A stretch of DNA of 35,103 nucleotides, from contig LCLB01000001.1 in assembly GCA_001001795.1 (NCBI GenBank), positions 8,249 through 43,351 on the forward strand, written 5' to 3'. Shown here one piece after another: positions 1 to 15,373 of the stretch (within the stretch, counting starts at the first letter, position 1; every line of letters begins with the position of its first letter). Under the pieces are notes generated by a model that was given only the letters and a program-made list of their open reading frames with translations, was not told the DNA's origin and ran no database searches. This DNA is from Parcubacteria group bacterium GW2011_GWF1_45_5 (GTDB taxonomy: Bacteria; Patescibacteriota; Minisyncoccia; UBA6257; Brennerbacteraceae). A program made the position numbers and the translations under genes.

Positions 1-1
1 C

Positions 2-529
2 GTGAAGGGAAGCTTTGCCGTAGCGATGCGTGCAATACGGAACGTGGTGAACTTGGATGCGAGTATCGTCACCAACATCGTGGTGTGTTCAGAAAATTTC
101 CGTTTCCTCAAACAATATATCGATGTTCTTGTACAGGCACGGGTGAGCAAGACTATTTTCCTGTTCATTGTGCCCGAAGGGAATGCGTTGCGTAACTCGT
201 CTTTAATCCCGGCGCTTCCGGAAGTTATCCCGTACGTACAGGATGCCGTTGATTATGCCAATATAAAAGGTGTTTACCCTGCGCTAACTTTTTTCCCTTT
301 TTGTGCGCTTGATCCGTATTATATTTCGTATGCGGCGGAAGCATATATGCCGGACCGGTTTAAAGATCCCGAGGCGTTTTCCGCGCGGAGGCATAGGCCA
401 CCGCAGTGTCTCCGGTGCGCGTGTTATCGATTATGCCCCGGGGTCTGGGAAGCGTATTATACACTCCATAGTTTTTGTTTTAAGCCTTTCCCGGTACGCC
501 GCCGTAGTGTGGGATCTCGTCACAAGTAG
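2..529 (+). CDS. Radical SAM protein, HxsC-like; C-terminal part only (5' truncated by window)
   Basis: KGSF..AI.N barrel segment, FFPFC and C-terminal QCLRCACYRLCPGVW (CxxCx5CxG); co-linear with the next ORF. Confidence 0.85.
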   Translation: MKGSFAVAMRAIRNVVNLDASIVTNIVVCSENFRFLKQYIDVLVQARVSKTIFLFIVPEGNALRNSSLIPALPEVIPYVQDAVDYANIKGVYPALTFFPFCALDPYYISYAAEAYMPDRFKDPEAFSARRHRPPQCLRCACYRLCPGVWEAYYTLHSFCFKPFPVRRRSVGSRHK

Positions 530-532
530 CCG

Positions 533-652
533 ATGACCGGTAGATTATTGGTTTCTCTGCCACATTTTTTATCCCACGCGGTTCGCGCGCTGACGGAGGG
601 CGGTGGTATATCATGGAATCTCATTTGTTTTCTTAATATTCTTATATTATGA
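533..652 (+). CDS. Possible 39-aa small ORF (MTGRLLVSLPHFLSHAVRALTEGGGISWNLICFLNILIL)
   Basis: Hand-translated; ATG 3 nt after the upstream TAG, TGA at 650-652; no homology evidence. Confidence 0.2.
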   Translation: MTGRLLVSLPHFLSHAVRALTEGGGISWNLICFLNILIL

Positions 653-685
653 TAAACAGTACAGATAGCGGATATTCATACTTTC

Positions 686-1570
686 ATGCGTCATTACAGA
701 CTTTTCCTGACGAGTGTTCGCAATGAGAATTGTTCGTTTTGTTCGGTAAAAGACGATCCGTTTGTCTCCCTTTCTTTTTTGGATGCGGTTACCTTGCTCC
801 GGGAGGCTCGAAGAAAAGGTGCCGATTATTTAAGCATAGACGGAGGAGAGGTAACGATGACGTCCTACTTTACGAAACTGATTCAGCGAAGCGTTTCCCT
901 TGGTTTCAAAAAGATAGTCGTCAATACAAACGGTTTTGGTTTTCGCAATCGTGATTTTACCGAAACCGTTTTGGAAGAAAGGCAGCATATATTGAGGATA
1001 TGCATTTCCTTGTATGGTCATAATAAGCGCGTACATGACAGATTGACTAACGTAAAAGGAAGCTTCGATGCCACGATAAAGGCCATAAAAAACATAACCG
1101 ACATGCGAGGTGATCTTGTTGCCAGTCTGGTCGTATGCTCGGAAAACTTTCCCTTTTTGAAAAAATATATCGGCACTCTGAAACGATTGAAGATAAAAAC
1201 AGTGATTATATCATTTGTTGCAGTTGAGGATGATGTGTTATGGAAGCCGTCATTTGTTCCCGATATAAGAGATACCATTCCGTTTCTTCAAAAGGCAATT
1301 GACTACGCCAATACAAAAAATATAAGCATATCGCTTGTTTTTTTTCCTTTTTGCGTACTGGGTAAATATTACACCGAGTATGCGACCGAGAGGTATGCGG
1401 GCAATCGTTATAAGAATCAAAAAGAGTTTTTTAAAGGAAAACACATTTCGAAACAGTGTTTTGGATGCACCTATTACAATTCATGTCCGGGCGTTTGGGA
1501 AGAATATTATAAATTGCGCGGTTTCAGGTTCAGGCCCGTATCCGCAAGACTTCACGAGTCATCTAATTAA
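686..1570 (+). CDS. Radical SAM-fold protein with degenerate cluster motif (RxxxCxxC)
   Basis: VRNENCSFC, DGGEVT, NTNG, HDRLT..KGSF, FFPFC, QCFGCTYYNSCPGVW. Confidence 0.85.
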   Translation: MRHYRLFLTSVRNENCSFCSVKDDPFVSLSFLDAVTLLREARRKGADYLSIDGGEVTMTSYFTKLIQRSVSLGFKKIVVNTNGFGFRNRDFTETVLEERQHILRICISLYGHNKRVHDRLTNVKGSFDATIKAIKNITDMRGDLVASLVVCSENFPFLKKYIGTLKRLKIKTVIISFVAVEDDVLWKPSFVPDIRDTIPFLQKAIDYANTKNISISLVFFPFCVLGKYYTEYATERYAGNRYKNQKEFFKGKHISKQCFGCTYYNSCPGVWEEYYKLRGFRFRPVSARLHESSN

Positions 1571-1591
1571 TGAGTATTCATTTTGTTTCTA

Positions 1592-3517
1592 ATGGAACGC
1601 ATAGATATAAAAATAGGATTCCAATGCAATAATCGTTGTCTTTTCTGTATTCAGGGAGAGAGGCGGTACAGTGAGCCGGATAAGTCCGAAAAAGAAATAC
1701 GGGATATTCTGCGAAGGATGAGGAAAAACCATAACGGTGTTGTTTTCACCGGTGGAGAGCCGACCATAAGACCGGAGCTTTTGGACCTGGTGCGGTACGC
1801 TAAAGAAATAGGGTACCGGCATATTCAAATCCAAAGCAACGGACGGATGTTCGCGTATCCGGAATATTGTCAGGCGTTGATAAGGGCTGGATGTAACGAA
1901 TTTTCTCCCGCACTTCACGGTTCCACTTCTCGCATACACGACTCTTTGACTCGTGCGCCCGGCAGCTTCAATCAAACAGTTCGGGGTATCCGGAATCTGA
2001 AAGCGCTGGGTCAGCACATTATTACCAACAGCGTTGTCACCAAAATGAATTATAAAGATTTGCCCGCGCTGGCTCGTTTGCTGGTGAGTCTTGGTGTTGA
2101 TCAGTTCCAGTTTGCCTTTATGCATATTAATCCGGTCATAGCGCACGATTCTTCATTGATCCGAAAACTTGTCCCCCGATATCAAGAAGCAGTTCCTTAC
2201 ATGAAGAGAGGTATAGAGATAGGGGGAAAAGCGGGGATAAGGGTTATGGTTGAAGCAACGCCATATTGTTTTATGAAAGGATATGAGAAATATGTGTCCG
2301 AGCAGTATATTCCTTTCTCAAGCGTAGTAGACGGCAAAAAAGAAATAACGGATTACGGTTCATATAGGAAAAATATCGGAAAATCCAAAGGGCCTAAATG
2401 TAGTCAATGTATATATAATGGGGTCTGCGAGGGTCCTTGGGCCGAATATCCCCGTATTTTCGGGTGGTCGGAATTAAAACCCGTATATTCCGATCCAGAA
2501 ATTATATCCAGTACCGGTGCCGTAGACGAAAAGGAAAGCGTAAAACGTGGGAAAGGATCAAAGGAAGACCAATCGTCTTCCGGAAAGGTTTTTCTGGTCA
2601 TGACGGGCTTTTTATGCAACAACGATTGCGTTATGTGCAGCGTGAAACCCAAGGCGTTGCAGTATGTTTCCCGAAGCACAAAAGAGATTATCAAGGACAT
2701 GGAAAGGGGAATAAAGTCCGGCTATGAGAATATTGAATTTACAGGAGGAGAGCCGACAACAAGAGATGATGTATTATTACTGATCAAAAAGGCGAAAAAA
2801 TTGGGATACAGGGATGTCGCGCTCGGAACCAATGCCCGGACGTCGAGTTCTTTGTCGTTTTTGAAGGAATTGCAGAGAAATGGTTTAACCAGGTTGGTAA
2901 CAACAGTATACGGACCGACCCCGAAAGTTCATGATAAGGTGACCCGGGTGCGGGAAAGTTTCAGGCAAACTATTCAAGGTGTTAGAAACTCGCTTCGTTT
3001 AGGGATTATGACAAGCGTTAACACAGTTGTCTTCAATATGACTGTTGGTTCTTTGAGGGACACGGGGCTTTTTCTATTTTCTCTTGGTGTGAGGCATTGG
3101 ACTTTGCTCGATTTGATTCCGGACGGATATGTACACGATCAGTATTCGCTTTTTTCGGTGCACCCAGAAAGTCTACAAAATGCTTTGAAAAGAATAGGTC
3201 CGGTTCTTCCAAAATTCGGGCAGGTTTTATTCATGGACTTCCCTTATTGTTTATTCCCACCCTCATTATTGAAAATGGAAAACTGTCATTTCATTAACGC
3301 GAAAGAGAGAACCGAGATCATTAAACAGGTTGGCTATAATCCAAAGCGTTTTCAAGAAAAATCTAATACCTATTACGATATCCATAAAACCAGGGTTCGG
3401 AAATGCTCGAAATGCGTCTATCGCGACGAATGTGGAGGCGTCTGGGTTCCATTTCCGGATTCATATGGGGAGTCTTTTATTAAACCGTTTATCAGGAGAA
3501 TAGACAGGGATCGATAA
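1592..3517 (+). CDS. Tandem double radical SAM protein (two complete HxsC-like domains)
   Basis: Domain 1: CNNRCLFC, TGGEPT, QSNGR, TPYC, CSQCIYNGVCEG. Polar linker. Domain 2: CNNDCVMC, TGGEPT, FPYC, CSKCVYRDECGG. ATG 1592 preferred to TTG 1583. Confidence 0.9.
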   Translation: MERIDIKIGFQCNNRCLFCIQGERRYSEPDKSEKEIRDILRRMRKNHNGVVFTGGEPTIRPELLDLVRYAKEIGYRHIQIQSNGRMFAYPEYCQALIRAGCNEFSPALHGSTSRIHDSLTRAPGSFNQTVRGIRNLKALGQHIITNSVVTKMNYKDLPALARLLVSLGVDQFQFAFMHINPVIAHDSSLIRKLVPRYQEAVPYMKRGIEIGGKAGIRVMVEATPYCFMKGYEKYVSEQYIPFSSVVDGKKEITDYGSYRKNIGKSKGPKCSQCIYNGVCEGPWAEYPRIFGWSELKPVYSDPEIISSTGAVDEKESVKRGKGSKEDQSSSGKVFLVMTGFLCNNDCVMCSVKPKALQYVSRSTKEIIKDMERGIKSGYENIEFTGGEPTTRDDVLLLIKKAKKLGYRDVALGTNARTSSSLSFLKELQRNGLTRLVTTVYGPTPKVHDKVTRVRESFRQTIQGVRNSLRLGIMTSVNTVVFNMTVGSLRDTGLFLFSLGVRHWTLLDLIPDGYVHDQYSLFSVHPESLQNALKRIGPVLPKFGQVLFMDFPYCLFPPSLLKMENCHFINAKERTEIIKQVGYNPKRFQEKSNTYYDIHKTRVRKCSKCVYRDECGGVWVPFPDSYGESFIKPFIRRIDRDR

Positions 3518-3545
3518 GGATATATGATTAAGGTGTACAGTACAT

Positions 3546-4430
3546 ATGAGTGGTATCAGAAAAAAGATTAAAAATAAAGAAACGAGCCCATACGTTTACG
3601 TTGGGTATGCTTGCAACAATAATTGCATATTTTGCAGTGAGGCCGATGAATATCTTTCTGGGTTGAAGGAAAAGTCCATTGCGGAAATCAGAAAAGAACT
3701 CCGGATAATAAGAAAAAAATATGATTTCGTAAGCATCATGGGCAGGGAGCCGACAGTGAGAAAGGATATTCTAGAAATCATAAGATTTGCCCGGAGCCTT
3801 AAGTTCAGACAGGTGGGGTTGACAACGAATGGTCGTATGTTCTCTATCTCGTCTTTCACGAAAGCGGTTCTCGCTACGGGTATCAATCAAATCGGGGTTT
3901 CTCTTTCCGGGGCATCGGCCCGTATCCATGATCGCCAGACACTTGTCCCGGGAAGTTTTAAACAAACAATCGCCGGCATCAAAAGCATCATCAGATACAA
4001 AGGAAAAAACACAAGCCTTCTTGTTAACCTTCCAATGAACAGGTTGAATTATCGTAATCTTGGCGCGGAGCTGGAGCTATTAACCGGTTTAAGAGTCCGA
4101 GAGATAAATATTCTAAATATTTCCCCATTAAGCACGCGTTCTGCCACCAAAAAGCTGATTATGCCGATGCCCCGGCTTGGCGCTTACGTTTTTAATGTTT
4201 TAAAAAGAGGTGGTTTTTTGAACAAAACAGATTTGAGGGTTTTGTTGGTCGAATTTCCTCCGTGCAGTTTGCCGAAAGAGGCGCAGGTATATTCTTTTCC
4301 TTGCCTGGAGAAAAACAACGACAAAGTCAGAATCTCTCTTTGCAGACAATGTTCTTATAAAATTAAATGTGACGGAATCCTGAATTCATATCTTCGTTTG
4401 TATGGCGATAATGAGTTTATCCTGGAATAA
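3546..4430 (+). CDS. Radical SAM protein, HxsC-like
   Basis: CNNNCIFC, MGREPT (GGE variant), TTNGR, HDRQT..PGSF, FPPC, CRQCSYKIKCDG. Confidence 0.9.
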   Translation: MSGIRKKIKNKETSPYVYVGYACNNNCIFCSEADEYLSGLKEKSIAEIRKELRIIRKKYDFVSIMGREPTVRKDILEIIRFARSLKFRQVGLTTNGRMFSISSFTKAVLATGINQIGVSLSGASARIHDRQTLVPGSFKQTIAGIKSIIRYKGKNTSLLVNLPMNRLNYRNLGAELELLTGLRVREINILNISPLSTRSATKKLIMPMPRLGAYVFNVLKRGGFLNKTDLRVLLVEFPPCSLPKEAQVYSFPCLEKNNDKVRISLCRQCSYKIKCDGILNSYLRLYGDNEFILE

Positions 4431-4431
4431 A

Positions 4432-4572: not shown

Positions 4573-4581
4573 TATCTTGAT

Positions 4582-5598
4582 ATGAAAAGAGCCGAAAACA
4601 ATCAGGGTGTTGCCCCAGGCGGGAGCGTTGTGACGCACGAGGCACATGCGTATATCCAACTGAACACTACTTGTAATCAAAAATGTTTATTTTGTAACAG
4701 ACCACCCATGGATCCGACGAAGGTCGTTAAGTGGTGTATTCCAAAATCGAAGGACGTCATGAAGGCAATCAAGGATAAGTTAAGGGATCCCGCGATGAAA
4801 AGAATTATCTTTACTGGCGGAGAACCTCTTTTATATCCCGACATTTCTAAAGTTATCCGTTTTGCGAAGAAGTGCGGTTTTATGGTCGAAATTCAAACAA
4901 ATGGTACGTTGTTGGACAGACAGATGATATCTACCTTGAAAGACGCCGGACTGGACATTATTAACTTCGGGTTGCACAGTCATAAGAAGAATGTCAGCAG
5001 CCAGTTGCGGGGTGTCCGGTTTGGCTTTGAAACCATTATAAAAAACCTCCGGCTTGCCGATAAAAACGGTTTTAAAATCCATATCATTCATGTCATTAAT
5101 TCGTTCAATTATAAAGACCTTCCCGGGTTTATTGATTTTATGCACAAGTTGCGTCTTCATAATCTTTGGTTGAATCTTAGTCTGGTTGTTCCGGAGGGCT
5201 GGGCATGGGAGAATAAACGAGTCATTCCCAGGGCGCGGGATATTAAGCCGTTTTTGCAAAAAGCGATGAAAAAATGTTCGACTTACGGAATTCGTTTTGA
5301 TGTTTCGGAAATCGTACCGTTGTGTATCGTTGACGGCTTTGAAAACCATGCCATTTCAACTTTATTCAAGATATCCCAATTTAAAATAGTGGATGATTAT
5401 CTTTCCGGGGTGCGGGGTCTCGATTTTTCCAAACCGTCTTCTTTACAGGCCGCAAAAGCTCCACAGTGCAAAAAGTGTACCATGAATGCGATATGCGCAG
5501 GATTCTACCCACGGCTTAAGGAACTCTACGGTGTAAGAGACTTTATCCCGCGTACAGATGATCCTTTACCGGTTTATAAGAAGCTACGCCTTATATGA
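4582..5598 (+). CDS. Radical SAM protein, HxsC-like
   Basis: CNQKCLFC, TGGEPL, QTNG, VPLC, CKKCTMNAICAG. Confidence 0.9.
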   Translation: MKRAENNQGVAPGGSVVTHEAHAYIQLNTTCNQKCLFCNRPPMDPTKVVKWCIPKSKDVMKAIKDKLRDPAMKRIIFTGGEPLLYPDISKVIRFAKKCGFMVEIQTNGTLLDRQMISTLKDAGLDIINFGLHSHKKNVSSQLRGVRFGFETIIKNLRLADKNGFKIHIIHVINSFNYKDLPGFIDFMHKLRLHNLWLNLSLVVPEGWAWENKRVIPRARDIKPFLQKAMKKCSTYGIRFDVSEIVPLCIVDGFENHAISTLFKISQFKIVDDYLSGVRGLDFSKPSSLQAAKAPQCKKCTMNAICAGFYPRLKELYGVRDFIPRTDDPLPVYKKLRLI

Positions 5599-6500
5599 TG
5601 AATGAAAAAGAACTGTCCAAAGCGGCAAGAATTGTTCCTCAAACCAATTTTGTTTTGTCGGAATTCATGGCGATGTTGGTCGGTGAAAAACCGGCCATAG
5701 TGACAAGTTTTCAGAATAGAGGAGAGGATAGCTTCATAAAGACCAATTTTCCAGGTTTATTTATGGCCATAGGAAATGGATCCTGGTACATAAAGGAACC
5801 GATTTTAGCCATATCCAGGAATAAAGAATTCGCCCGACAGGCAGCCGACTATCTTAATGTAGTCTCAATAGAGGCGCAAGGGAGGGTTCTGGGCTACCCG
5901 AATTGTTGCAGCAAGCGGCATGCTGATTTTTGTCGCGATGGCAAGGCGCTTGATTCGTCTTTTATTGTCTTCGAAACACACCGAAGTTCAGAGAAACATA
6001 ATTACCTGTTGAATAATCTTTTCAATTTTTACAGTAGGCTCGGGATGGACCAGGGGAGGTTTGATGATTTTATCCGATATGGTAAAGTCAATGAAAGAAT
6101 TTTAGGATTTTATGCCTTCCACCTGGAGTATATTTCTCATATACCTTGCCGTTACGACTGTCCCAAAAGTGTAAAAATCGGAAAAAGGATAGAGTCAATT
6201 TTGAGAAAATATGCCCCCGTGATGGAGAACAACATAAAATATTCCCTTGCGAAACCGGTATTATTCTTCAACCTTTTTAATCTGGTTGTGTTCGATGGTT
6301 ACTGCGAAGGCGACACCTTGTTTTATAGTAAGGTGGCGCCCCCTTATTTTCCTTCAGCCAGTACTTTGGTAGCGCTCCTTAAAGAAGGCAACAGAATTGT
6401 TGTTTCCGACCGCAGAATCTCGATATACAACGGGAACAAAAAACTATTTTCCTATAAAAAAAAGAGTATAAGAGACGGTTTTATCATCGATTTCAAATGA
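5595..6500 (+). CDS. DUF483-like cysteine-motif protein
   Basis: GRVLGYPNCC and HIPCRYDC motifs; ATGA overlaps with neighbours on both sides. Confidence 0.6.
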   Translation: MMNEKELSKAARIVPQTNFVLSEFMAMLVGEKPAIVTSFQNRGEDSFIKTNFPGLFMAIGNGSWYIKEPILAISRNKEFARQAADYLNVVSIEAQGRVLGYPNCCSKRHADFCRDGKALDSSFIVFETHRSSEKHNYLLNNLFNFYSRLGMDQGRFDDFIRYGKVNERILGFYAFHLEYISHIPCRYDCPKSVKIGKRIESILRKYAPVMENNIKYSLAKPVLFFNLFNLVVFDGYCEGDTLFYSKVAPPYFPSASTLVALLKEGNRIVVSDRRISIYNGNKKLFSYKKKSIRDGFIIDFK

Positions 6501-7762: not shown

Positions 7763-7796
7763 GTATTTTTAGTCAAGGCGGTGGCATAAGCGTCAT

Positions 7797-8735
7797 ATGA
7801 AACAAATAAAAAAAACAGTCATTTTTTTCAGTTATACATGCAACAACAGATGCGTTTTTTGCATTAATTACAATAAAAGGAAGATTGCCGCGCCGTCTTA
7901 CACAGATGTTAAAAAGGATATATTGAATGCAAAAAGGAGAGGAAGCACGTATCTGGAACTCATCGGAGGGGAACCGACCATAGATCCCAATATCTTGGGG
8001 CTTATTCTGTTTGCCAAAAGAATGAAGTTCGAGACCGTTATGATGGCGACAAACGGCAGGATGTTCGCCTATAAAGATTTTACCGAAAAGATTTTACGCG
8101 TGGGCCTTAATAGCATTATTTTCTCTATTCATGGTCATACGGCAACGCTGCATGACTCATTGACCGGGGTGCAGGGGAGTTTTGCGCAATTGAATCAGGG
8201 GGTAAAAAATGTCCAAAAGATCTCCAAGAAACTTCACCTACAGGTAATGCTCGGGACAAATACAACCATTGTGAGGCAAAACTATAAACTTTTACCACGA
8301 ATCGGAGCCTATATAAAAAAAATCGGTCTTTATAACGCAGAGTTCATTTTCGTTGATCCAACGTACGGTGGGGCGCATGATGATTTCCGTACCCTTGTGC
8401 CCAAGATTTCGGAGATTGCGCCATACGCTCATGCATGCTTGGATATTGGAAAGAAATACAAGATTCAGCACTGGCATATCCGGTATGTTCCCTTGTGTTA
8501 CTTTCAGAATTATCTTGACCAAATCAGTGAATTGAATGAAATAAATGTTTATAGTAATGTCGAGCACATTGCCCCTGACTTTTACAATTCACATGCTCTC
8601 GAAGGAAGGAAATTAGTAGGGAGGGCGCGTCCTTCGAAATGTAAAGGGTGCGGACTTTATGCGATGTGTGAGGGGATATGGAAAGAATATCTTCGCCATT
8701 ATGGCGATTCTGAATTAATCCCTCAAAAGGCATGA
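7797..8735 (+). CDS. Radical SAM protein, HxsC-like
   Basis: CNNRCVFC, IGGEPT, ATNGR, HDSLT..QGSF, VPLC, CKGCGLYAMCEG. Confidence 0.9.
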   Translation: MKQIKKTVIFFSYTCNNRCVFCINYNKRKIAAPSYTDVKKDILNAKRRGSTYLELIGGEPTIDPNILGLILFAKRMKFETVMMATNGRMFAYKDFTEKILRVGLNSIIFSIHGHTATLHDSLTGVQGSFAQLNQGVKNVQKISKKLHLQVMLGTNTTIVRQNYKLLPRIGAYIKKIGLYNAEFIFVDPTYGGAHDDFRTLVPKISEIAPYAHACLDIGKKYKIQHWHIRYVPLCYFQNYLDQISELNEINVYSNVEHIAPDFYNSHALEGRKLVGRARPSKCKGCGLYAMCEGIWKEYLRHYGDSELIPQKA

Positions 8736-9784
8736 TAGAGCCCTTGCGGGAGGAGGATTACGGAGTATGGGACGCTTTCGTGGAAGAATCTTCCGACGGG
8801 ACATTATTCCATACGATCGCGTGGAAGAGAATTTTAGAGGAAACATTCGGTTACCAGCCATATTATTTTATTTTAAGAGACGCCAAAGGCGGGATTGCCG
8901 GGATATTTCCGGCGTTTTTGGTCAGGGGTATCCATGGAAAGGTGCTTGTGTCGTTGCCGTTTATGGAGTACGGAGGGCCAATTGTACGGGATGGGTATTA
9001 CGCATCGATGTTTGAAAGTATCGTTAATTTATTTGTGATGTTAAAAAAAGAACAAGGCGTACGTTATCTTGAGATAAAGACGCCTCCAGATACGCAATAT
9101 CATGACGCAGAGTCGTTCTTATTTGCGCCGGTTGTTAAGGCATACGATTATAGTATTAATATCGGCGGGAGGGATTTTACGAATGATTTTTGGCCGAAGA
9201 TGAAAGCGAAAACAAGGGTTCGGCACTCAGTTGTGCAATCGTGCCGGTACGGGGTAGGAGTGGCAGATGCCGATATACACTCCTTCTATGCGCTTCATGT
9301 CAGTAGTATGGCGCGTGTCGGTTCACTTCCATGGCCACAACGATTTTTTGCAAATATACGCACATATTATCCTGCATCACGGTTTATCGGGGCATATATT
9401 GATAAAAAAATGATCGGGGCAATGCTTAATTTGCCGTATCGGGCAAGGGATTTAGCGGTTGTGCTGTCGTACGATCGTTCATGCCAAGCATACCGGGCAA
9501 GCGATCTTTTGTATTATCATGAGATACGGTTTGCTTTTGAGAATCGATTCGCCACAGTTGATTTTGGCCGTACCCGTCCCGATTCCCCGTACGAAAAATA
9601 CAAACAAAAATGGGGAGCGACAAAACATACGCTTTATAGCTACGTGTACCCCGCAGATATGTGCCATTTGGTCGATCCGTATGCCTCCTATACGCGCTTC
9701 GCGCGATTCACAAGAAATAACATAGCATGGAACGCCTTCGTACATACTTTTTTCGGGCAAAACGCCATACGCTATTTCCCGTAA
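8732..9784 (+). CDS. FemAB-related / GNAT-family acyltransferase
   Basis: WDAFV..GTLFH..AW.RILEETFGY, LVSLPF.EYGG, DFGRT, KYKQKWGA. Confidence 0.8.
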   Translation: MIEPLREEDYGVWDAFVEESSDGTLFHTIAWKRILEETFGYQPYYFILRDAKGGIAGIFPAFLVRGIHGKVLVSLPFMEYGGPIVRDGYYASMFESIVNLFVMLKKEQGVRYLEIKTPPDTQYHDAESFLFAPVVKAYDYSINIGGRDFTNDFWPKMKAKTRVRHSVVQSCRYGVGVADADIHSFYALHVSSMARVGSLPWPQRFFANIRTYYPASRFIGAYIDKKMIGAMLNLPYRARDLAVVLSYDRSCQAYRASDLLYYHEIRFAFENRFATVDFGRTRPDSPYEKYKQKWGATKHTLYSYVYPADMCHLVDPYASYTRFARFTRNNIAWNAFVHTFFGQNAIRYFP

Positions 9785-9786
9785 AT

Positions 9787-10440
9787 TTGGAGATCCGACA
9801 GCGGATATTTTTCAACCGTGTTGCGGAAGATTTCGGGACACGTGCGTGGGCTACGGGTAGGGTGGCGGAACGGCAGGCAATACGTCGATGGACGGCAGAA
9901 CGTATCATATACGGCGAGAACATTCTCGACGTCGGTGTCGGCAACGGTCTTATGTTCCAGTACCTTAAAAGGAAAATCAATTATACGGGTATCGATATTT
10001 CCGAGAATATGCTTATTCAGGCCGGAATTCGGGCGCGTCATTACGGGATTCCCTTCACTGCCCTACAGGGTAATGCCGCTGCGTTGCCGTTCCCCGATAG
10101 TTCGTTCGATACAGTTATGTGCATAGATATGTTCCATCATATTCCCCGGTTTCTTCGGAGTCGCGTATTAGGTGAACTTGTACGGGTAGTGCGTCCCCGC
10201 GGTCAAATTATTATAGAAATAAAGAATCAATGGAATCCATTCATCGCATGTGGATATTTGATTGGCGGTATGGTTCATGGCGTTACTATGGTCCCCGTTA
10301 ATCCGTTTAATGTCCGGCATTATTTCTCCGAAACAGGTTTTCATATACAAGACAAATTTATTGTGCCTCCGCGCATATGCCCGCCGTTCATCGTGTTTGA
10401 TTTGCGTCAGGGTACAGGCGATGTCCGTGTGATACAATAA
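9787..10440 (+). CDS. Class I SAM-dependent methyltransferase
   Basis: LDVGVGNG, GIDIS, LPFPDSSFDTV, RVVRPRG; TTG 9787 avoids overlap with the upstream gene (ORF open from 9727). Confidence 0.85.
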   Translation: MEIRQRIFFNRVAEDFGTRAWATGRVAERQAIRRWTAERIIYGENILDVGVGNGLMFQYLKRKINYTGIDISENMLIQAGIRARHYGIPFTALQGNAAALPFPDSSFDTVMCIDMFHHIPRFLRSRVLGELVRVVRPRGQIIIEIKNQWNPFIACGYLIGGMVHGVTMVPVNPFNVRHYFSETGFHIQDKFIVPPRICPPFIVFDLRQGTGDVRVIQ

Positions 10441-10483
10441 AACAAGGGAATAAAATTATGTAAATATTTTTCCTACCTTGATT

Positions 10484-11173
10484 ATGACGGTATCAGTTAT
10501 TGTTCCGGTGTACAACGAAGAAAAAACCATCGCGACAACCATTCGCGCGATCAATGCGGTTAATATATCAAAACAAGTGATTATTGTTGATGATGGCTCT
10601 ACGGATGCAACCCGTGAGGCTATCGGTATGCTGTGCGATCAATACCAGTTCATATTAATCAGACACGAGGGTAATCAAGGGAAAGGAACCGCCATTCAAT
10701 CGGCGCTTGCCCATGCCACTGGCGAAATATCTGTTATTCAGGACGCGGATCTGGAAACCAGCCCCGATAATTATCCACGCCTGGTAGAGCCGATTATCCG
10801 GGGCGAAACAGGGGTGGTGTTTACGTATCGCATACGTGCCCCTATAACCAAAGAATCATTGTCGCATTGGGTGTACCGTTGGGGGAACGCGGTGCAAACA
10901 TGCTTGGCTAATTTGTTATTTGGCGCCAGTATACGTGACGTAAACAGTGGTTGTAAGGCGTTCAGAACCGATATATTGAAAGCATTTGAATTGCGGGAAC
11001 GGGGATTTGCCGTTGAACATGAGATGACGGCGAAGGCATTAAAGAGGAGTCGTTGTATATACCAACTGCCGATTCGATATTTTCCCCGTACGATTAGGCA
11101 GGGTAAGAAAATAAATTTTTTTGACGGTATCAAAGGAATTACAGCCCTTATTCGATACAGATTCATTCCGTGA
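10484..11173 (+). CDS. Glycosyltransferase family 2 (DPM1/ArnC-like polyprenyl-phosphate glycosyltransferase)
   Basis: VIVPVYNEE, VDDGSTD, NQGKG, QDADLE (DxD), D.NSG.K.FR. Confidence 0.9.
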   Translation: MTVSVIVPVYNEEKTIATTIRAINAVNISKQVIIVDDGSTDATREAIGMLCDQYQFILIRHEGNQGKGTAIQSALAHATGEISVIQDADLETSPDNYPRLVEPIIRGETGVVFTYRIRAPITKESLSHWVYRWGNAVQTCLANLLFGASIRDVNSGCKAFRTDILKAFELRERGFAVEHEMTAKALKRSRCIYQLPIRYFPRTIRQGKKINFFDGIKGITALIRYRFIP

Positions 11174-12999
11174 AGAATATGTTTTCCAACAAGATGATTT
11201 CTAAAATGTTGACGGTTACGGTCATTATGGCGGTATATGTTCTGCTTATTTTGTTCATTAATCCCGGCATCCTGTCGTTCCATCGTGATCCGATATTATT
11301 CGAGGAAGATATCAGAATTTTCGTTTATACTTTTCCTTTATTGGCAGTGATTATTGCCGGATACATTTGTTTTTGCGAAAGGCGTGTATTTCTGGAAGTG
11401 ATGCGTTCGGTTCCTAAAAGATATTTTATAACCCTGGGGATAACGGTGATTATTTTTCTTCTTGTCTGTTGTTGGGGAGGATTGACCCTTAAGTTTTTTA
11501 ATCCAACCGATGCCGAATGGGCCGAACTGCATTACGCCAGGGACTTGGTGACGGGCGATAAACGTGCATTTCTTTATCTTATAGACCGGGTAATGGGCAT
11601 CTTGATATATGCCATAGGATTTAAGGTATTTGGATTTACGCCTTTTGTAGGGACAATAACCAGCTTAGTGGTCGGCGCCCTCTCCATTGTCGCGGTTTTC
11701 TTCTTGGCCCAAGTTCTATTTCGTAATCCTCGGATCAGTTTGGCCAGCGGCATGGTGTACGCCGCGAACCCCCATGTCCTGATTTTTTCTTCGGTCAGGA
11801 TGGGATACACGATTATAGTCGGTCTTTTCATGTTACTTTTTATTATCGCCGCGGTTTTAGCCTTTAGGCGGCATTCTTTTCCCCTGCACATTGTCGCCTT
11901 GGCTTGTTTTGCGGTTATGAATCAGACCAAACCAGAGTACTTTGTTCTGATCGGGGTTTACGCATTTTGCTATCTGTTATTCGGAGAATTTAGGCATTTA
12001 TCCTGGCGACGTACGGCAGTATTGTGTCTGGTTTTGTTTTTATTCTCCATACCATTTTTACTAACTAATTATCATTTCCGCCAGACAACCATGGATGGTT
12101 GGTGTAGCTTTCCTTCGCAACCATTTCATGATGGCAGATTCTATTCTTATTTTTCGCCTGTGCTAGCCCCTATGGACGTAGCTTTGCGTTTCTTATTGAA
12201 TAATCGTTTTTCCCTGAATTATTTCTTCAACGATATTCCTTCGTTTATTTCGTTTTGGGGTTCTCTGAAGATGGTAATTATAAGCGTGGTGGCAATGGTT
12301 GGCTTTTTGCTTTCTTTTAAGAAACATTTTAGGGATAATTTGTTCTTATTTTTATCCTTCGTAATAATGTCGTTTATATATTTAGCCGATTGTATTTACT
12401 ACGAGGATCGTTTGGCGGTTCCGACTTACAATATTGCTGTTTTGTATGTCGGTTTTGCCATTGGTTTTCTTGCGGATTCGTTGACGAGGTTCATCGGGAA
12501 GGGCGAGATATCCAGGTATATTTCTGTCATCATCATTTCGTTGGCTGTTTCATTGGTGTCGTTGGGAGTGGCTTTTAAAAGTTATCGTTCATATCTCGGT
12601 GAACGTCTTTTGCCGCATTCGCTGTTGGACCTTTCGTCAACTTATAGTGTCGATATTTATGGAGACTTAAGATCAATCTCGGATAAATACGGTTTTGCGC
12701 CCGCGCAATCATATCTTATTCTCCCTGGTCACGCTGAGCTGCATTCGGCTCAATTTCTTGGTTATGAAGCGATTGCTCTTTCTGATATGTTCGACAGCTC
12801 GTTTTTTACTGACCGCGATCTTTTCCTTGGAAACTTTCAACTGCCTCATGGGGCATTTAAGAATAATTATTTCATCGAGAGTCCCCAGTGTTCTCCGCCC
12901 GATCAGGAGCTTGGTGTCATGTGCGAATTTGTAAAAATAAACTATAAGGAACGTATGATAGGGCAATGGGGAGTGTATACTATATATCAATTAAAGTAA
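11170..12999 (+). CDS. Multi-pass membrane glycosyltransferase, GT-C superfamily (ArnT/PMT-like)
   Basis: Many hydrophobic segments, acidic PTDAEW loop after the early TMs, P.HV.FS and TKPEY motifs, soluble C-terminus; GTGA-coupled to the GT2. Confidence 0.65.
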   Translation: MKNMFSNKMISKMLTVTVIMAVYVLLILFINPGILSFHRDPILFEEDIRIFVYTFPLLAVIIAGYICFCERRVFLEVMRSVPKRYFITLGITVIIFLLVCCWGGLTLKFFNPTDAEWAELHYARDLVTGDKRAFLYLIDRVMGILIYAIGFKVFGFTPFVGTITSLVVGALSIVAVFFLAQVLFRNPRISLASGMVYAANPHVLIFSSVRMGYTIIVGLFMLLFIIAAVLAFRRHSFPLHIVALACFAVMNQTKPEYFVLIGVYAFCYLLFGEFRHLSWRRTAVLCLVLFLFSIPFLLTNYHFRQTTMDGWCSFPSQPFHDGRFYSYFSPVLAPMDVALRFLLNNRFSLNYFFNDIPSFISFWGSLKMVIISVVAMVGFLLSFKKHFRDNLFLFLSFVIMSFIYLADCIYYEDRLAVPTYNIAVLYVGFAIGFLADSLTRFIGKGEISRYISVIIISLAVSLVSLGVAFKSYRSYLGERLLPHSLLDLSSTYSVDIYGDLRSISDKYGFAPAQSYLILPGHAELHSAQFLGYEAIALSDMFDSSFFTDRDLFLGNFQLPHGAFKNNYFIESPQCSPPDQELGVMCEFVKINYKERMIGQWGVYTIYQLK

Positions 13000-13009
13000 T
13001 CAAACAATT

Positions 13010-13228
13010 ATGGTTAAAAAGGTATCGACGAAAATTAAGGAATATGTTCTGGTATACCAAAGCCAGGAACATTATGAGGTGCTGGGGTATGTTCGAGCTC
13101 CATCTATGATAGTAGCCAAGAAGAGGGCTCAAAAAAAACTTCTGCCGGAAGCGAAATATTATAATGTTCCGCAAGCGGAAATAGACGAGATAGCGGGTTT
13201 CGACAGAGTAGACTTTGATTTGAAATAA
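13010..13228 (+). CDS. Hypothetical 72-aa protein
   Basis: ATG in TATG context; fills the gap between the GT-C and the last radical SAM gene; basic N-terminus, acidic C-terminus. Confidence 0.7.
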   Translation: MVKKVSTKIKEYVLVYQSQEHYEVLGYVRAPSMIVAKKRAQKKLLPEAKYYNVPQAEIDEIAGFDRVDFDLK

Positions 13229-13265
13229 TCATTTTGTATTTTCCGTTTCATTGCCATTCTTGATT

Positions 13266-14195
13266 ATGCCCGATGTTGCCATTTGGAACCAGTGTAACAA
13301 TCATTGCGTGATGTGCACGAATTCTTTATCTTTCCAATCGGAGAAAGAGAGTGTTCCTTACGCATTTAAAAGTATCAAACAAAGATGGGTGCGACGCGCC
13401 ATGGGGCCGGAGGATGTGATTTCTTTCAGCGGGGGAGAGCCCACGATTCATCCTGAATTTTTCGAAATTATCCATTGGTTTCGTGCCGAATATCCCAAAC
13501 GCACCATTGTAGTGGTGTCGAACGGGAGAATGTTTAGTTATCTTCAATTCACGAGAAACATTCTGAAAATCAGTAATATTCTTTTTGAAGTCGCCCTTCA
13601 TGGATACGATGAGAAATCGCACGACAGTGTAACCCGTGCTCCGGGGAGTTTCCGACAGACCGTTCAAGGGATTCATCACATCTTACGCCACAAGAAAGCA
13701 TCGCAAGAATTGGAGATACGGATTGTCGTCACCAAACTTACTTATAAGCACCTGGGGAAGATACTCTCTTTTGTTGAAAAAGAATTCGGCGCTCAAAAGA
13801 TACGGGACATCGCTCTGATTTTTATAGAAATGGAGGGTCAGGCTCAAGATAACGCACGAGTCGTGGGCATATCGTATGAAAAGGTAAAGAAATATATAGA
13901 ATCTGCCGTCCACGACTGGTCATCGTCTTTCCGTGAACTTCGATTGCTTCATTTTCCTTTATGCACAATTCCTCAAATATTATGGCCGTACGCATGGAGA
14001 ACGCTCAGGGAAGAGGAGGTGACCTTTTTGTCGCGTTGTGCATCGTGTCTGATGAAGAAATATTGCTTGGGAATCCATAAGGACTATATAAGCATCATGG
14101 GGAAGGGAGAATTCAAACCGGTTCGAAATATGAAGAAAAAGATAGAAAAGGGGATCTCTTTCTATAAGCCCATTAAAAGCATTTCGCGGGGATGA
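13266..14195 (+). CDS. Radical SAM protein, most HxsC-like copy
   Basis: CNNHCVMC, SGGEPT, VSNGR, HDSVTRAPGSF.QT..GI, EIRIVV.KL.Y, FPLC, CASCLMKKYCLG. Confidence 0.9.
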   Translation: MPDVAIWNQCNNHCVMCTNSLSFQSEKESVPYAFKSIKQRWVRRAMGPEDVISFSGGEPTIHPEFFEIIHWFRAEYPKRTIVVVSNGRMFSYLQFTRNILKISNILFEVALHGYDEKSHDSVTRAPGSFRQTVQGIHHILRHKKASQELEIRIVVTKLTYKHLGKILSFVEKEFGAQKIRDIALIFIEMEGQAQDNARVVGISYEKVKKYIESAVHDWSSSFRELRLLHFPLCTIPQILWPYAWRTLREEEVTFLSRCASCLMKKYCLGIHKDYISIMGKGEFKPVRNMKKKIEKGISFYKPIKSISRG

Positions 14196-15373
14196 CCATT
14201 CCTTCAACCGTTATTACCTATTTATTCCTGATTCCTCTTGGATTGCTTGGTGGCATCACCAGTTATACTGACATCAGATACGGGAAGATAAAGAACATTC
14301 ATTTGCTTTTGGGGTTGATATATTCGATTTGTTTGTATTCTTTTCTGATTGTTTACAGTACGTACGGCATTCATCAACCGGGTAATCTGAAATATCTTTT
14401 CAATCTATTTCTAAACGGATCCTTTGCGTTTTTATGCGGTTATCTTTTATGGCGTTTTGATTTATGGGCGGCAGGGGATGCGAAACTTTTTTCTCTTTTT
14501 GCGTTTCTTATCCCTCTGGAGTTTTATTCTCGCAGTTATATCTCTCTTTTCCCCTCGGCAACGCTTCTGATCGATGCATTCCTTTTCATCTGTTCCGCTT
14601 TTATTGTTGAAATGCTTTGCAAATTGACCCTATCGCTGTACGGTATCGCTAGGAGTTTTCTTAGAAAAATTAAAGAAGGTTTTAGGTTGTCTTTCTCCGA
14701 TTTTTTCCGAATGCGATGGGGAGTTTTAAAGAGCTTTATTATAGAAACAGGGAAATTGTTTCTATTGTGCACCAGCGCGCTTATTGCCATCGAGGGCCTT
14801 TCAATTTTTCTGAAAAAGATTATCCCTTCGGCGAACATATCGCACCCTTTGCTTTTTCAAACATTTTTTTTCGCGTTGCAAATCATTTTATTTAGATCCC
14901 TTTGGAAAAACAAAATATTTGTTAGATTAATTTTAGTGGCAGGCGCAGTATGCGGTACCATTTTTCTTTTATCGCATAATGGAATATTATTACTGAATCT
15001 GGTAAAAAACTCTATAATCCTTTTGCTTTTGGTGGGAGTTGTCATGCAGATGGTCTATACGTACATCGAATCTCACGAGACCAGAAGAATAAGGGCTAAA
15101 GATGTTTGTCTGGGTAGCTTTATTACCCCGGAGTCGTTACTTTATATAGAAAATGAGTTTAAAAAGAAAAATAAGGCAGATGAGCTCGGTACCTGTTGTT
15201 CCGATGGTTTGACAAGGATCCAGGCGGATCTTATCCGTGACGTATTCGAAAACGATGACAGCATTCGGATAAACGTATATAAAACCTTCTTTTTCGCACC
15301 TTTTATATTTTTGGCCTTCTTATTCACGATTTTGACAAAGGGATCATTCTTGTTTTTCCTTCTGGATCTTTAA
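14192..15373 (+). CDS. A24-family (prepilin/preflagellin, FlaK-like) intramembrane aspartyl peptidase
   Basis: First Asp in SYTDIRYGKIKN, second in WAAGDAKL; multi-TM; C-terminal DGL...V.KTFFFAPFI. Confidence 0.8.
   Translation: MTIPSTVITYLFLIPLGLLGGITSYTDIRYGKIKNIHLLLGLIYSICLYSFLIVYSTYGIHQPGNLKYLFNLFLNGSFAFLCGYLLWRFDLWAAGDAKLFSLFAFLIPLEFYSRSYISLFPSATLLIDAFLFICSAFIVEMLCKLTLSLYGIARSFLRKIKEGFRLSFSDFFRMRWGVLKSFIIETGKLFLLCTSALIAIEGLSIFLKKIIPSANISHPLLFQTFFFALQIILFRSLWKNKIFVRLILVAGAVCGTIFLLSHNGILLLNLVKNSIILLLLVGVVMQMVYTYIESHETRRIRAKDVCLGSFITPESLLYIENEFKKKNKADELGTCCSDGLTRIQADLIRDVFENDDSIRINVYKTFFFAPFIFLAFLFTILTKGSFLFFLLDL

What the first reader, a model, noticed from the sequence alone, without database searches (positions are those of the whole stretch)
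1..15373. Array of at least 9 related radical SAM domains joined to glycosylation, acylation and membrane-peptidase genes: candidate undescribed post-translational modification system
Seen: 8 co-directional radical SAM genes share one architecture (N-terminal CxxxCxxC where visible, GSF-type barrel motif, PxC, terminal CxxCx5CxG). They are interleaved with DUF483-like, GNAT, methyltransferase, GT2, GT-C and A24 peptidase genes. ATGA/GTGA overlaps occur at 5595, 6497, 8732, 11170 and 14192. Knowledge: the layout resembles HxsC of His-Xaa-Ser systems, which usually have one HxsB, one HxsC, HxsD and an HxS-repeat precursor. None of HxsB, HxsD, an HxS repeat or a PqqD/RRE domain is recognisable here. 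Inference: a multi-step pathway that modifies a peptide or pilin-like surface protein, then cleaves and glycosylates it at the membrane. This is a large Fe-S/SAM investment for a probable CPR cell.
Basis: partly seen in the sequence, partly recalled or inferred. Interest (0 to 1): 0.88.

Follow-up and report, generated by a model that had tools for sequence, protein, structure and literature searches.

The report
Expanded His-Xaa-Ser maturation locus
The radical SAM gene array is the downstream part of a greatly enlarged His-Xaa-Ser (Hxs) protein-maturation system, a kind of system recently shown to block phage DNA entry in E. coli, here found in a tiny groundwater bacterium with many extra enzymes and its own membrane peptidase.

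Summary
The window carries 8 co-directional radical SAM (rSAM) genes with 9 HxsC-like domains, plus DUF483-like, FemAB/GNAT, methyltransferase, GT2, GT-C and A24-like genes.

Just upstream on the same contig lie HxsD, an HxsD-like protein, HxsB (all above NCBIfam cut-offs), a single precursor with 17 His-Xaa-Ser repeats, and a second SPASM rSAM.

The whole is about 20 kb, 3% of a 657 kb genome, and holds 11 of the genome's 13 rSAM domains.

Eight other genomes of the same order carry the same expanded layout. The HxsC-like genes fall into seven orthologous classes, so they are old, non-redundant paralogues.

The A24-like peptidase always follows the most HxsC-like paralogue. In metagenomes it is found essentially only beside Hxs genes.

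GT-C and GT2 recur in about half of the loci. The FemAB-like gene is seen only here; the methyltransferase recurs in two other loci.

Verdict: a new, strongly expanded variant of a known system. A role in phage defence is inferred, not shown.

The parts
1..529 (+). 3' part of HxsC-like rSAM gene 'C0'. Its 5' part lies upstream at G000:C1:7807-8238, separated by a run of 10 N at the window edge.
   Evidence: The N-terminal part has CTQDCVFC. C0 is 43-53% identical to C1.
686..1570 (+). HxsC-like rSAM 'C1'. It lacks the first Cys of CxxxCxxC and may be catalytically degenerate.
   Evidence: The orthologue in G019 keeps the motif (CNQKCGFC).
1583..3517 (+). Fused double HxsC-like rSAM 'C2N+C2C'. 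These are separate genes in the related genomes.
   Evidence: (two stretches; HxsC4 287.8 bits, cut-off 500).
3546..4430 (+). HxsC-like rSAM 'C3'
   Evidence: orthologue clade, SH-aLRT 100.
4582..5598 (+). HxsC-like rSAM 'C4'
   Evidence: clade support 99.
5595..6500 (+). DUF483-like protein with invariant GYPxCC ... PCxxxCxxS motifs; function unknown.
   Evidence: The fold search gave no PDB match at E <= 0.001.
6497..7762 (+). HxsC-like rSAM 'C5' with a C-terminal extension
   Evidence: clade support 97.
7797..8735 (+). HxsC-like rSAM 'C6'
   Evidence: clade support 100.
8732..9784 (+). FemAB-family / Acetyltransf_6 protein; seen only in this genome's locus.
   Evidence: TIGR03019 125.8 bits, cut-off 260. 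No BLAST hit in the 8 related loci or in the 80 metagenome loci.
9727..10440 (+). Class I SAM methyltransferase (accessory)
   Evidence: A class I methyltransferase also occurs in the G639 locus, and a BLAST hit to this gene occurs in metagenome locus L117.
10478..11173 (+). GT2 glycosyltransferase. Its best models are polyprenyl/dolichyl-phosphate sugar transferases (AglJ and others), all below cut-off.
   Evidence: Recurs in G565 and G629 and in 7 of 21 metagenome clusters with >= 6 kb upstream.
11170..12999 (+). GT-C (PMT_2/ArnT-like) membrane glycosyltransferase with about 12 hydrophobic segments
   Evidence: BLAST hits in G019, G540, G565 (two copies) and G629, and in 9 of 21 metagenome clusters.
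13010..13228 (+). Conserved 72-aa small ORF of no known family, directly upstream of C7.
   Evidence: tblastn hits in 8 of 8 expanded genomes and in 22 of 36 metagenome clusters with >= 1.4 kb upstream.
13251..14195 (+). HxsC-like rSAM 'C7', the paralogue closest to canonical HxsC (182.3 bits, cut-off 267.9)
14192..15373 (+). A24-like GxGD membrane aspartyl peptidase with invariant D..I.N and W..GDAKLF motifs
15374..15398 (+). Terminator-like hairpin with a T run at the end of the locus (a consensus match only)
15444..16700 (+). NifS/IscS-like cysteine desulfurase. It possibly supplies Fe-S clusters to the locus, or it is simply housekeeping.
   Evidence: IscS-like genes also lie in or beside Hxs loci in G504, G054 and in L112, L121, L122, L189.

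Best explanation
The window holds the downstream two thirds of one about 20 kb His-Xaa-Ser (Hxs) type maturation locus, G000:C1 about 3300-23621.

Gene order: HxsD, an HxsD-like protein, HxsB, one HxsA4-like precursor, a second SPASM rSAM of 646 aa, nine HxsC-like rSAM domains (C0-C7), a DUF483-like protein, an accessory block (FemAB-like, methyltransferase, GT2, GT-C), a 72-aa protein, then C7 and an A24-like peptidase.

Shown: gene identities, gene order, and conservation of the layout in other genomes.

Inferred mechanism:
1. The single 147-aa precursor has a conserved 31-residue leader, a Sec-like hydrophobic segment ending in A-x-A, two H-x-S-x-F-x-N units, 17 HxS repeats and a Cys-rich tail.
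2. It is modified in the cytoplasm on its His/Ser repeats by HxsB, the second SPASM enzyme and the seven classes of HxsC-like enzymes. HxsD proteins act as adaptors.
3. The neighbouring ferredoxin, FNR-like reductase and cysteine desulfurase supply electrons and Fe-S clusters.
4. The precursor is then exported and loses its leader. The locus-specific A24-like protease is the best candidate for that cut, about 40%, at the invariant Gly before the hydrophobic segment.
5. In some lineages the product is further decorated outside the membrane by the GT2 and GT-C pair.

Most likely role, about 40%: an envelope barrier against phage, by homology to the E. coli HXS system.
For: Upstream Hxs core: HxsD 70.6 bits (cut-off 50), HxsD_rel 69.3 (cut-off 41), HxsB 499.5 (cut-off 370), and a precursor with 17 HxS repeats. 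Only one HxS-repeat ORF and one such leader exist in the whole genome.

All window rSAMs match HxsC/HxsC4 models at E <= 1e-14; these are the top models for most of them, and 11 of the genome's 13 rSAM domains lie in this locus.

HxsB above cut-off occurs in 10 of 400 other genomes of the order and in 0 of 400 others in a phylum-wide sample. Of those 10, 8 carry the expanded layout and 2 (G013, G054) are simpler.

A tree of 69 HxsC-like proteins gives seven orthologue classes, each with members from all or nearly all of the 9 genomes. SH-aLRT support is 97-100 for six classes and 86 for C7. Paralogues are only 20-32% identical to each other.

The A24-like gene is adjacent to C7 in 8 of 8 expanded loci. 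In metagenomes, 45 of 51 A24-like clusters have Hxs neighbours, and the other 6 sit at contig edges. Of 39 clusters with >= 900 nt upstream, 32 have an HxsC-like ORF directly upstream. Its two Asp motifs are invariant. The genome has a separate canonical A24 peptidase elsewhere.

The leader, with an invariant Gly, is conserved in 20 distinct precursors.

Complex prediction of the A24-like protein with the leader gave weak support only: score 0.60, best control 0.00, partner pLDDT at least 59, runs agree in at least 75% of contacts. The mark was reached by 58 of 80 solved complexes and 2 of 110 mismatched pairs, but at 0.60 or under by only 7 of those 80 and by both mismatches that passed.

E. 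coli HXS: HxsB, HxsC and HxsD are needed for N-terminal processing and a +8 Da modification of HxsA, which blocks phage DNA entry (PMC13128918, abstract and sections 8-11 read).
Against: No HxsC-like protein reaches the HxsC cut-off (best 182.3, cut-off 267.9) or the HxsC4 cut-off (best 287.8 for the double protein, cut-off 500).

All of them lack the roughly 100-residue N-terminal region of canonical HxsC. The CxxxCxxC motif sits at residue 117 in Aeromonas HxsC and at residues 9-79 in the full-length rows here.

The precursor differs from canonical HxsA. It has no peptidoglycan-binding domain and no Pfam hit. The x positions are G/S/A/T rather than Arg, which weakens the electrostatic DNA-binding model. 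This copy scores 48.6 on HxsA4, cut-off 55.

The hydrophobic segment is below a transmembrane threshold and ends in A-x-A. Ordinary signal peptidase could therefore do the cleavage, leaving the A24-like protein without an assigned substrate.

Folds of the A24-like and DUF483-like proteins found no solved relative at E <= 0.001.

The PADLOC library gave only generic rSAM (viperin-model) matches. No known defence genes were seen beside the locus.
Confidence: 0.78

Rival explanations
1. Same maturation machinery, but the product is not an antiphage effector. It is a His-rich, Cys-tailed surface polymer that binds or stores metal ions such as Ni, Zn or Cu, or has some other envelope role.
For: The array has a His at every third residue over 17-61 repeats, with Cys clusters at the C-terminus. 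The x positions are not basic, unlike canonical HxsA. An ArsR/SmtB-type metalloregulator (63.6 bits, cut-off 55) lies at the left edge of the region in this genome.
Against: The regulator gave no BLAST hit in the related loci. No metal transporter lies in the locus. The only experimentally studied relative is an antiphage system (PMC13128918). A patchy distribution, 10 of 400 genomes in the order and 0 of 6 in the same family, fits an accessory or defence trait at least as well.
Confidence: 0.2
2. The locus builds or decorates a cell-surface fibre or attachment structure for an episymbiotic lifestyle. The fibre-like protein encoded just upstream of HxsD would be a partner or a second substrate.
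For: A secreted fibre-like protein lies directly upstream of HxsD in G000 and in 6 of 8 expanded genomes. It has an N-terminal A-W-[ST]-N-P motif, GNVGIGT repeats and a conserved C-terminal ...LCCKVSNPI. Some HxsA tails end in a similar CCK motif (G565, G629). A second such protein here carries a phage tail collar domain.
Against: The fibre protein has no HxS repeats and no Hxs leader. Adjacency alone is weak evidence. No binding test was run.
Confidence: 0.12
3. The FemAB-like, methyltransferase, GT2 and GT-C block (window 8732-12999) is an envelope-glycan module that landed in a variable slot of the locus and does not act on HxsA.
For: The FemAB-like gene gave no hit in 8 related loci or 80 metagenome loci. 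The GT-C gave a hit in only 4 of 8 genomes and 9 of 21 metagenome clusters, often on the opposite strand. The same slot holds other genes elsewhere: a B12-binding rSAM in G565 and large rSAMs in G593, G629 and G639.
Against: The GT2 and GT-C pair recurs at the same place, between the C3/C5/C6 genes and C7, in many independent loci. The Ser-rich repeats are a plausible O-glycosylation acceptor. In this genome the genes overlap by 4 bases with their neighbours.
Confidence: 0.4
4. One reading: an undescribed modification system unrelated to Hxs that matures a pilin-like protein.
For: Within the window itself there is no HxsB, HxsD, precursor or RRE.
Against: HxsD, HxsB and the HxS precursor lie immediately upstream on the same strand and contig. 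The same joint layout occurs in 8 other genomes. No class III prepilin signal was seen in the precursor, whose hydrophobic segment is Sec-like and ends in A-x-A. The genome has a separate canonical A24 peptidase.
Confidence: 0.03

Closest known systems
Canonical HXS / His-Xaa-Ser system (HxsD-HxsB-HxsC-HxsA) of Pseudomonadota, e.g. E. coli (PMC13128918) and Aeromonas salmonicida plasmid NC_009349.1
   Same: HxsB and HxsD are above the equivalog cut-offs, and HxsB is about 37% identical to proteobacterial HxsB. The precursor is exported and carries tandem HxS repeats. The HxsC-type rSAMs have CxxxCxxC plus a C-terminal CxxCx5CxG cluster motif, which the Aeromonas HxsC also has.
   Different: Nine HxsC-like domains in seven conserved classes instead of one, none above the HxsC cut-off, and all without the canonical N-terminal region.

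Extra components: a second SPASM rSAM, an HxsD-like protein, DUF483-like proteins, a 72-aa protein and a dedicated A24-like peptidase.

The precursor has 17-61 repeats instead of about 5-7, a long conserved leader, no peptidoglycan-binding domain and no Arg in the repeats.

Gene order is D-B-A-...-C rather than D-B-C-A. The paper reports that more than 99.8% of HXS systems have four proteins and that 99.7% are in Pseudomonadota (section 10).
NCBIfam 'type 4' Hxs models: HxsA4 (NF038313), HxsC4 (NF038332), HxsD-like (NF038315)
   Same: The precursor leader and repeats match HxsA4. This copy scores 48.6, and orthologues in G504, G579 and L135 score 101.4, 89.2 and 61.2, against a cut-off of 55. 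HxsD-like passes. HxsC4 is the best model for C2N, C3 and C6.
   Different: No protein reaches the HxsC4 cut-off of 500; C2N-type orthologues score 148-168. I could see only the model names, not their descriptions. I found no paper that names HxsA4 or HxsC4.
Peptidase A24 (prepilin / preflagellin peptidases, GxGD aspartyl proteases)
   Same: PF01478 matches 9 of 9 orthologues at E <= 0.01. Two invariant Asp-bearing motifs lie in hydrophobic helices. That these are the catalytic motifs of the family is recalled knowledge.
   Different: This copy is below the Pfam cut-off. The protein is larger, with extra helices and a soluble insert. It sits in an rSAM locus rather than a pilus locus, and no class III signal substrate was identified. 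The fold search did not retrieve a solved A24 structure.

Membership tests
His-Xaa-Ser (Hxs/HXS) system | HxsB rSAM/SPASM maturase (TIGR03978, cut-off 370 bits) | tested here: met
   499.5 bits for G000:C1:3957-5420.
His-Xaa-Ser (Hxs/HXS) system | HxsD small protein (TIGR03976, cut-off 50 bits) | tested here: met
   70.6 bits. A second HxsD-like protein scores 69.3 bits, cut-off 41.
His-Xaa-Ser (Hxs/HXS) system | HxsC rSAM maturase (TIGR03977, cut-off 267.9 bits) | tested here: not met
   The best is C7 at 182.3 bits. The others score 76-106 per domain. C7-type orthologues in 8 other genomes score 165-186.
His-Xaa-Ser (Hxs/HXS) system | Precursor with tandem His-Xaa-Ser repeats | tested here: met
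   17 HxS repeats in a 147-aa ORF, encoded by a 9-nt tandem array of 14.8 copies. HxsA4 model 48.6 bits, cut-off 55, for this copy; three orthologues pass.
His-Xaa-Ser (Hxs/HXS) system | Four-gene D-B-C-A organisation and a peptidoglycan-binding domain in HxsA (the E. coli type) | tested here: not met
   Order is D, D-like, B, A, SPASM rSAM, then HxsC-like genes. No Pfam domain in the precursor.
His-Xaa-Ser (Hxs/HXS) system | Antiphage activity; +8 Da modification of an HxS motif | not testable with these tools
   Known only for E. coli (PMC13128918, sections 8-9).
HxsC4 (NF038332) | Whole-protein score >= 500 bits | tested here: not met
   287.8 bits for the two-domain protein and 136.7 for C6. 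C2N orthologues score 148-168.
Peptidase A24 | PF01478 above the gathering score (26.5 bits) | tested here: not met
   18.9 bits for this copy. However, 9 of 9 orthologues match at E <= 0.01, best 7.5e-9.
Peptidase A24 | Two conserved Asp motifs, the second of GxGD type | tested here: met
   D27 (..YTDIRYGKIKN) and D96 (WAAGDAKLF) are invariant in 9-10 orthologues. Their catalytic role is recalled knowledge.
Peptidase A24 | Fold like solved A24 peptidases | tested here: inconclusive
   Model pLDDT 70, pTM 0.60. No PDB match at E <= 0.001. A profile search of PDB sequences gave 0 hits at E <= 1.
GT-C glycosyltransferase (PMT_2) | PF13231 above the gathering score (26.1 bits); polytopic membrane protein | tested here: met
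   30.2 bits. About 12 hydrophobic segments.
DUF483 (PF04467) | Above the gathering score (25 bits) | tested here: not met
   18.2 bits, and 18.7-21.9 for three relatives. The nearest Atlas clusters carry PF04467 in 20-40% of members.
RiPP recognition element (PqqD/RRE) | A recognisable PqqD-like domain in any locus protein | tested here: not met
   No PqqD-family hit in the Pfam scans of the locus proteins. Remote RREs could be missed.

The most novel reading that the evidence does not exclude
The CPR-type Hxs locus makes a new kind of protein-derived polymer. A secreted chain of up to 61 His-Xaa-Ser units would be rewritten residue by residue by seven specialised HxsC-class radical SAM enzymes plus two SPASM enzymes.

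The terminal module (72-aa protein, C7, A24-like GxGD protease) would be the dedicated leader-removal and export step. That would identify the missing protease type behind the non-canonical N-terminal processing of HxsA that the E. coli work left unexplained.
Probability: 0.3. Interest if true: 0.8.

Novelty: new variant of a known kind. Interest (0 to 1): 0.62.

Why it matters
HXS was shown only in 2026 to be an antiphage system. Its chemistry (+8 Da on one HxS motif) and the protease that trims HxsA are still unknown (PMC13128918, discussion).

This variant spends about 3% of a 657 kb genome, and 11 of its 13 rSAM domains, on one precursor. It keeps seven enzyme classes as one-to-one orthologues across three lineage groups. 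That argues for a multi-step or multi-site chemistry that the four-gene system hides.

It also names concrete candidate parts that are absent from the proteobacterial system: an A24-like peptidase, a 72-aa protein, DUF483-like proteins and a second SPASM enzyme. These could be tested by co-expression.

It extends Hxs systems to very small groundwater bacteria, whereas the published survey found 99.7% of systems in Pseudomonadota.

Tried and rejected
1. The search for related loci in genome contigs with the 646-aa SPASM rSAM alignment.

2. DUF483-like protein. The AlphaFold model had pLDDT 67. Foldseek against PDB gave 0 matches at E <= 0.001. The Atlas gave only unnamed or DUF483-bearing clusters. 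Function remains unknown.

3. A24-like protein. The model had pLDDT 70. Foldseek against PDB gave 0 matches at E <= 0.001. A profile search against PDB sequences gave 0 hits.

4. The 72-aa ORF. Pfam gave only sub-threshold BTB_2 fragments, in 15 of 20 members, best E 2e-4. hhalign against the HxsD alignment gave probability 0.6%, and against the N-terminal 116 residues of Aeromonas HxsC 0.1%. The Atlas gave no named family. The ideas that it is an HxsD homologue or a split-off HxsC N-domain are rejected.

5. The PADLOC library of 2023 gave only weak viperin-model matches to the rSAM cores. That library predates the HXS paper.

6. Expression: no RNA holder was listed.

7. The promoter scan was not above shuffles, 26 found against a mean of 36.4.

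8. Literature. Searches for His-Xaa-Ser/HxsB/HxsC/HxsD, for radical SAM with Patescibacteria, RiPP and CPR, and for HxsA2-4/HxsC4/'HxS repeat' found no description of multi-HxsC loci. The original description of the motif (cited as Haft and Basu in PMC9062424, passages seen) was not read.

10. I did not try to fill the run of 10 N at the window's left edge.

Full report
**Observation**

The window is G000:C1:8249-43351 of a 657 kb, 51-contig genome.

ORF listing and Pfam/NCBIfam scans confirm eight co-directional rSAM genes in window 1-14195:
- 2-529, cut at its 5' end
- 686-1570
- 1583-3517, with two rSAM domains
- 3546-4430
- 4582-5598
- 6497-7762
- 7797-8735
- 13251-14195

All of them match HxsC (TIGR03977) or HxsC4 (NF038332), which are the top models for most, and none reaches a cut-off. 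The best is 13251-14195, at 182.3 bits against 267.9.

The terminal CxxCx5CxG and P-x-C are in 9 of 9 domains, G[ST]F in 7 of 9, and CxxxCxxC in 8 of 9. ORF 686-1570 has lost the first Cys. The five 4-base overlaps are exact.

The interleaved genes are:
- a weak DUF483 match
- a FemAB/Acetyltransf_6 protein
- a class I methyltransferase
- a GT2
- a PMT_2-type GT-C
- a weak A24 match

Eleven of the 13 PF04055 matches in the genome lie in this locus.

**What lies to the left**

I fetched the 8.2 kb upstream of the window. On the same strand it carries, in G000:C1 coordinates:
- 3300-3734: HxsD (TIGR03976, 70.6 bits, cut-off 50).
- about 3760-3960: an HxsD-like protein (NF038315, 69.3 bits, cut-off 41).
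- 3957-5420: HxsB (TIGR03978, 499.5 bits, cut-off 370).
- 5417-5860: a 147-aa precursor.
- 5919-7859: a 646-aa rSAM/SPASM enzyme.
- 7807-8238: the 5' half of the gene that the window cuts, separated from it by a run of 10 N.

The precursor's C-terminal half is HGSHSSHGSHSS..., 17 HxS units. They are encoded by a 9-nt tandem array.

Further left are a ferredoxin, an FNR-like reductase, an ArsR-type regulator and two secreted fibre-like proteins.

The array belongs to a His-Xaa-Ser locus. Only one HxS-repeat ORF and one such leader exist in the whole genome. One precursor therefore faces eleven rSAM domains.

**Is the expanded form real and conserved?**

HxsB above cut-off was found in:
- 4 of 61 genomes in a sample of relatives, G000 included.
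- 11 of 401 genomes of the same order, G000 included. By family: 6 of 42, 1 of 1, 1 of 4, 1 of 42, 1 of 41; 0 of 6 in the window's own family.
- 1 of 401, G000 only, in a phylum-wide sample.

Of the ten other carriers, eight hold 5 to 10 or more HxsC-like matches next to HxsB: G019, G504, G540, G565, G579, G593, G629 and G639. Two, G013 and G054, are simpler.

BLAST of all ORFs in those loci against this locus gives a shared order:
1. a fibre-like protein (6 of 8)
2. HxsD
3. the HxsD-like protein in some
4. HxsB
5. HxsA
6. a SPASM rSAM related to the 646-aa enzyme (7 of 8; the eighth is broken by a contig end)
7. HxsC-like genes of recognisable types
8. DUF483-like genes (6 of 8, counting Pfam)
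9. a variable slot
10. C6, then C7, then the A24-like gene (8 of 8)
11. a ferredoxin directly after it in three genomes

**A tree of the paralogues**

The tree has 69 HxsC-like proteins from the nine genomes and is rooted on Aeromonas HxsC. I left out two contig-edge fragments and both halves of C0. It gives these clades:
- C2N: SH-aLRT 100
- C2C-type: 99
- C3: 100
- C4: 99
- C5: 97
- C6: 100
- C7: 86
- C1: 100, found only in G000 and G019

Inside most clades the same three genome groups recur.

Different classes are only 20-32% identical within this genome. C0 and C1 are 43-53% identical and look like a later duplication.

The expansion is therefore old, and each class has been kept. That argues for distinct roles rather than redundancy.

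**The peptidase and a missed gene**

The ten A24-like sequences (nine orthologues plus the G013 relative) share invariant D..I.N and W..GDAKLF motifs. All nine orthologues match PF01478 at E <= 0.01. The genome has a separate, canonical A24 peptidase on another contig.

A metagenome scan with the A24-like alignment found 288 relatives. The best 80 loci collapse to 51 clusters at 90% identity. Of these, 45 have Hxs-type neighbours, and the other six have under 200 nt of upstream sequence.

Of 39 clusters with at least 900 nt upstream, 32 have an HxsC-like ORF directly upstream, 25 of them C7-type. The other seven still have HxsA, HxsB, HxsD or further HxsC-like genes close by. In a few small loci the A24-like gene directly follows HxsA.

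The 252-nt 'gap' before C7 holds a 72-aa ORF (window 13010-13228). It is conserved in 8 of 8 expanded genomes and in 22 of 36 metagenome clusters with enough upstream sequence. It has no Pfam family. It is not HxsD-like and not like the N-terminus of canonical HxsC.

**The accessory block**

- GT-C gave BLAST hits in 4 of 8 genomes and in 9 of 21 metagenome clusters with at least 6 kb upstream.
- GT2 gave hits in 2 of 8 genomes and 7 of 21 clusters.
- DUF483-like gave hits in 11 of 21 clusters.
- The FemAB-like gene was found only here.
- A methyltransferase recurs in G639 and L117.
- The same slot holds a B12-binding rSAM in G565 and further large rSAMs in G593, G629 and G639.

Glycosylation is thus an optional tailoring step, or an unrelated insertion. 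It is not a core part of the system.

**The precursor**

Twenty distinct precursors share the leader P-x-I-K-K..F-L-x-S-E-E-G-K-I-[ST]-K-K..L-x-L-G. It is followed by about 17 hydrophobic residues, A-x-A, H-x-S-x-F-x-N units and then 2 to 61 HxS repeats.

The hydrophobic stretch is below a transmembrane threshold and looks like a Sec signal.

The canonical Aeromonas HxsA has a short signal peptide, Arg-rich repeats and a C-terminal domain that these precursors lack.

The HxsA4 model recognises several of these precursors. NCBI's curators have therefore seen this precursor type. I found no paper that describes it.

**Mechanism**

The HxS repeats are most likely modified in the cytoplasm by HxsB, the second SPASM enzyme and the seven HxsC classes, with HxsD proteins as adaptors. 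This follows from homology to E. coli, where HxsC binds HxsD and where HxsB, HxsC and HxsD are all needed for a +8 Da change and for N-terminal processing (PMC13128918, sections 8, 9 and 11 read).

Export and leader removal follow. The A24-like protease is my best candidate for the cut at the invariant Gly. The only direct test was a complex prediction with weak support: score 0.60, best control 0.00, partner pLDDT at least 59, runs agreeing in at least 75% of contacts. At 0.60 or under, only 7 of the 80 solved complexes reached the mark, and so did both mismatched pairs that passed at all. The A-x-A site offers signal peptidase as a rival.

An antiphage role is inferred from homology and from the patchy distribution. 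The lack of basic residues and of a wall-binding domain counts against a simple copy of the E. coli mechanism.

**Verdict**

It is wrong on the main point, because this is an Hxs locus.

It is a new, strongly expanded variant of a known kind, conserved across several families of very small genomes. No L30 match was found at 96.6% completeness, and the DNA occurs in groundwater and soil metagenomes.

Noticed in passing
window 13010-13228 (+): A conserved 72-aa ORF with no known family lies in what looks like an intergenic gap before C7. It is present in 8 of 8 expanded genomes and in many metagenome loci.
   Followed up: yes
L001 1290-2120 and 2613-3266 (G000:C1, upstream of the window): Two secreted fibre-like proteins share an N-terminal ...AWSNPSVNPPGGN motif. 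One has a phage tail collar domain. The other ends in ...LCCKVSNPI, and that C-terminus is conserved upstream of HxsD in 6 of 8 related genomes. Some HxsA tails end in a similar CCK motif.
   Followed up: partly
window 686-1570: This HxsC-like paralogue has lost the first Cys of CxxxCxxC (RNENCSFC). Its tandem duplicate C0 and its G019 orthologue keep the motif, so it may be a pseudo-enzyme.
   Followed up: partly
L001 8239-8248 (just left of window base 1): A run of 10 N splits the first rSAM gene. By comparison with its paralogue, at most a residue or two is missing. I did not try to fill it.
   Followed up: no
L161 12353-12706 and L186 16727-17104 (metagenome loci): These precursor variants have repeats that read H-x-S-C (HSSCHSSCHSSC...), with a Cys added to every unit. 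L167, L170, L129 and L144 carry other Cys- or Tyr/Gly-rich cores behind the same leader.
   Followed up: no
G000:C32:1325-1720: A second, canonical A24 prepilin-type peptidase (36.4 bits, above cut-off) lies elsewhere in the genome. The locus copy is therefore an extra paralogue.
   Followed up: partly
L102 11200-12633 (G565), L106 3642-5513 (G593), L109 7217-9025 (G639), L108 1293-2798 (G629): The variable slot of related loci holds yet more rSAM enzymes, including one with a B12-binding domain.
   Followed up: partly
window 15444-35066: Housekeeping genes follow the locus: NifS/IscS-like, ClpB, Pth, signal peptidase I, HisS, HIT, S21, YqeY, YbeY, FtsA, FtsZ, class I/II-type ribonucleotide reductase, L25, an SLT-domain protein, RF and MurJ. 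GC content is about 0.40-0.44 in most of the locus and 0.44-0.49 downstream.
   Followed up: no
whole genome G000: No ribosomal protein L30 match at 96.6% completeness, while 13 of 14 control genomes ring. This is consistent with a CPR/Patescibacteria-type organism. That CPR genomes lack L30 is recalled knowledge.
   Followed up: partly
HxsA genes of G000, G019, G504, G565, G579, G593, G629, G639: The repeat number ranges from 17 to 61 HxS units between genomes. This suggests fast expansion and contraction of the 9-nt tandem array. The G639 copy is interrupted by N.
   Followed up: partly
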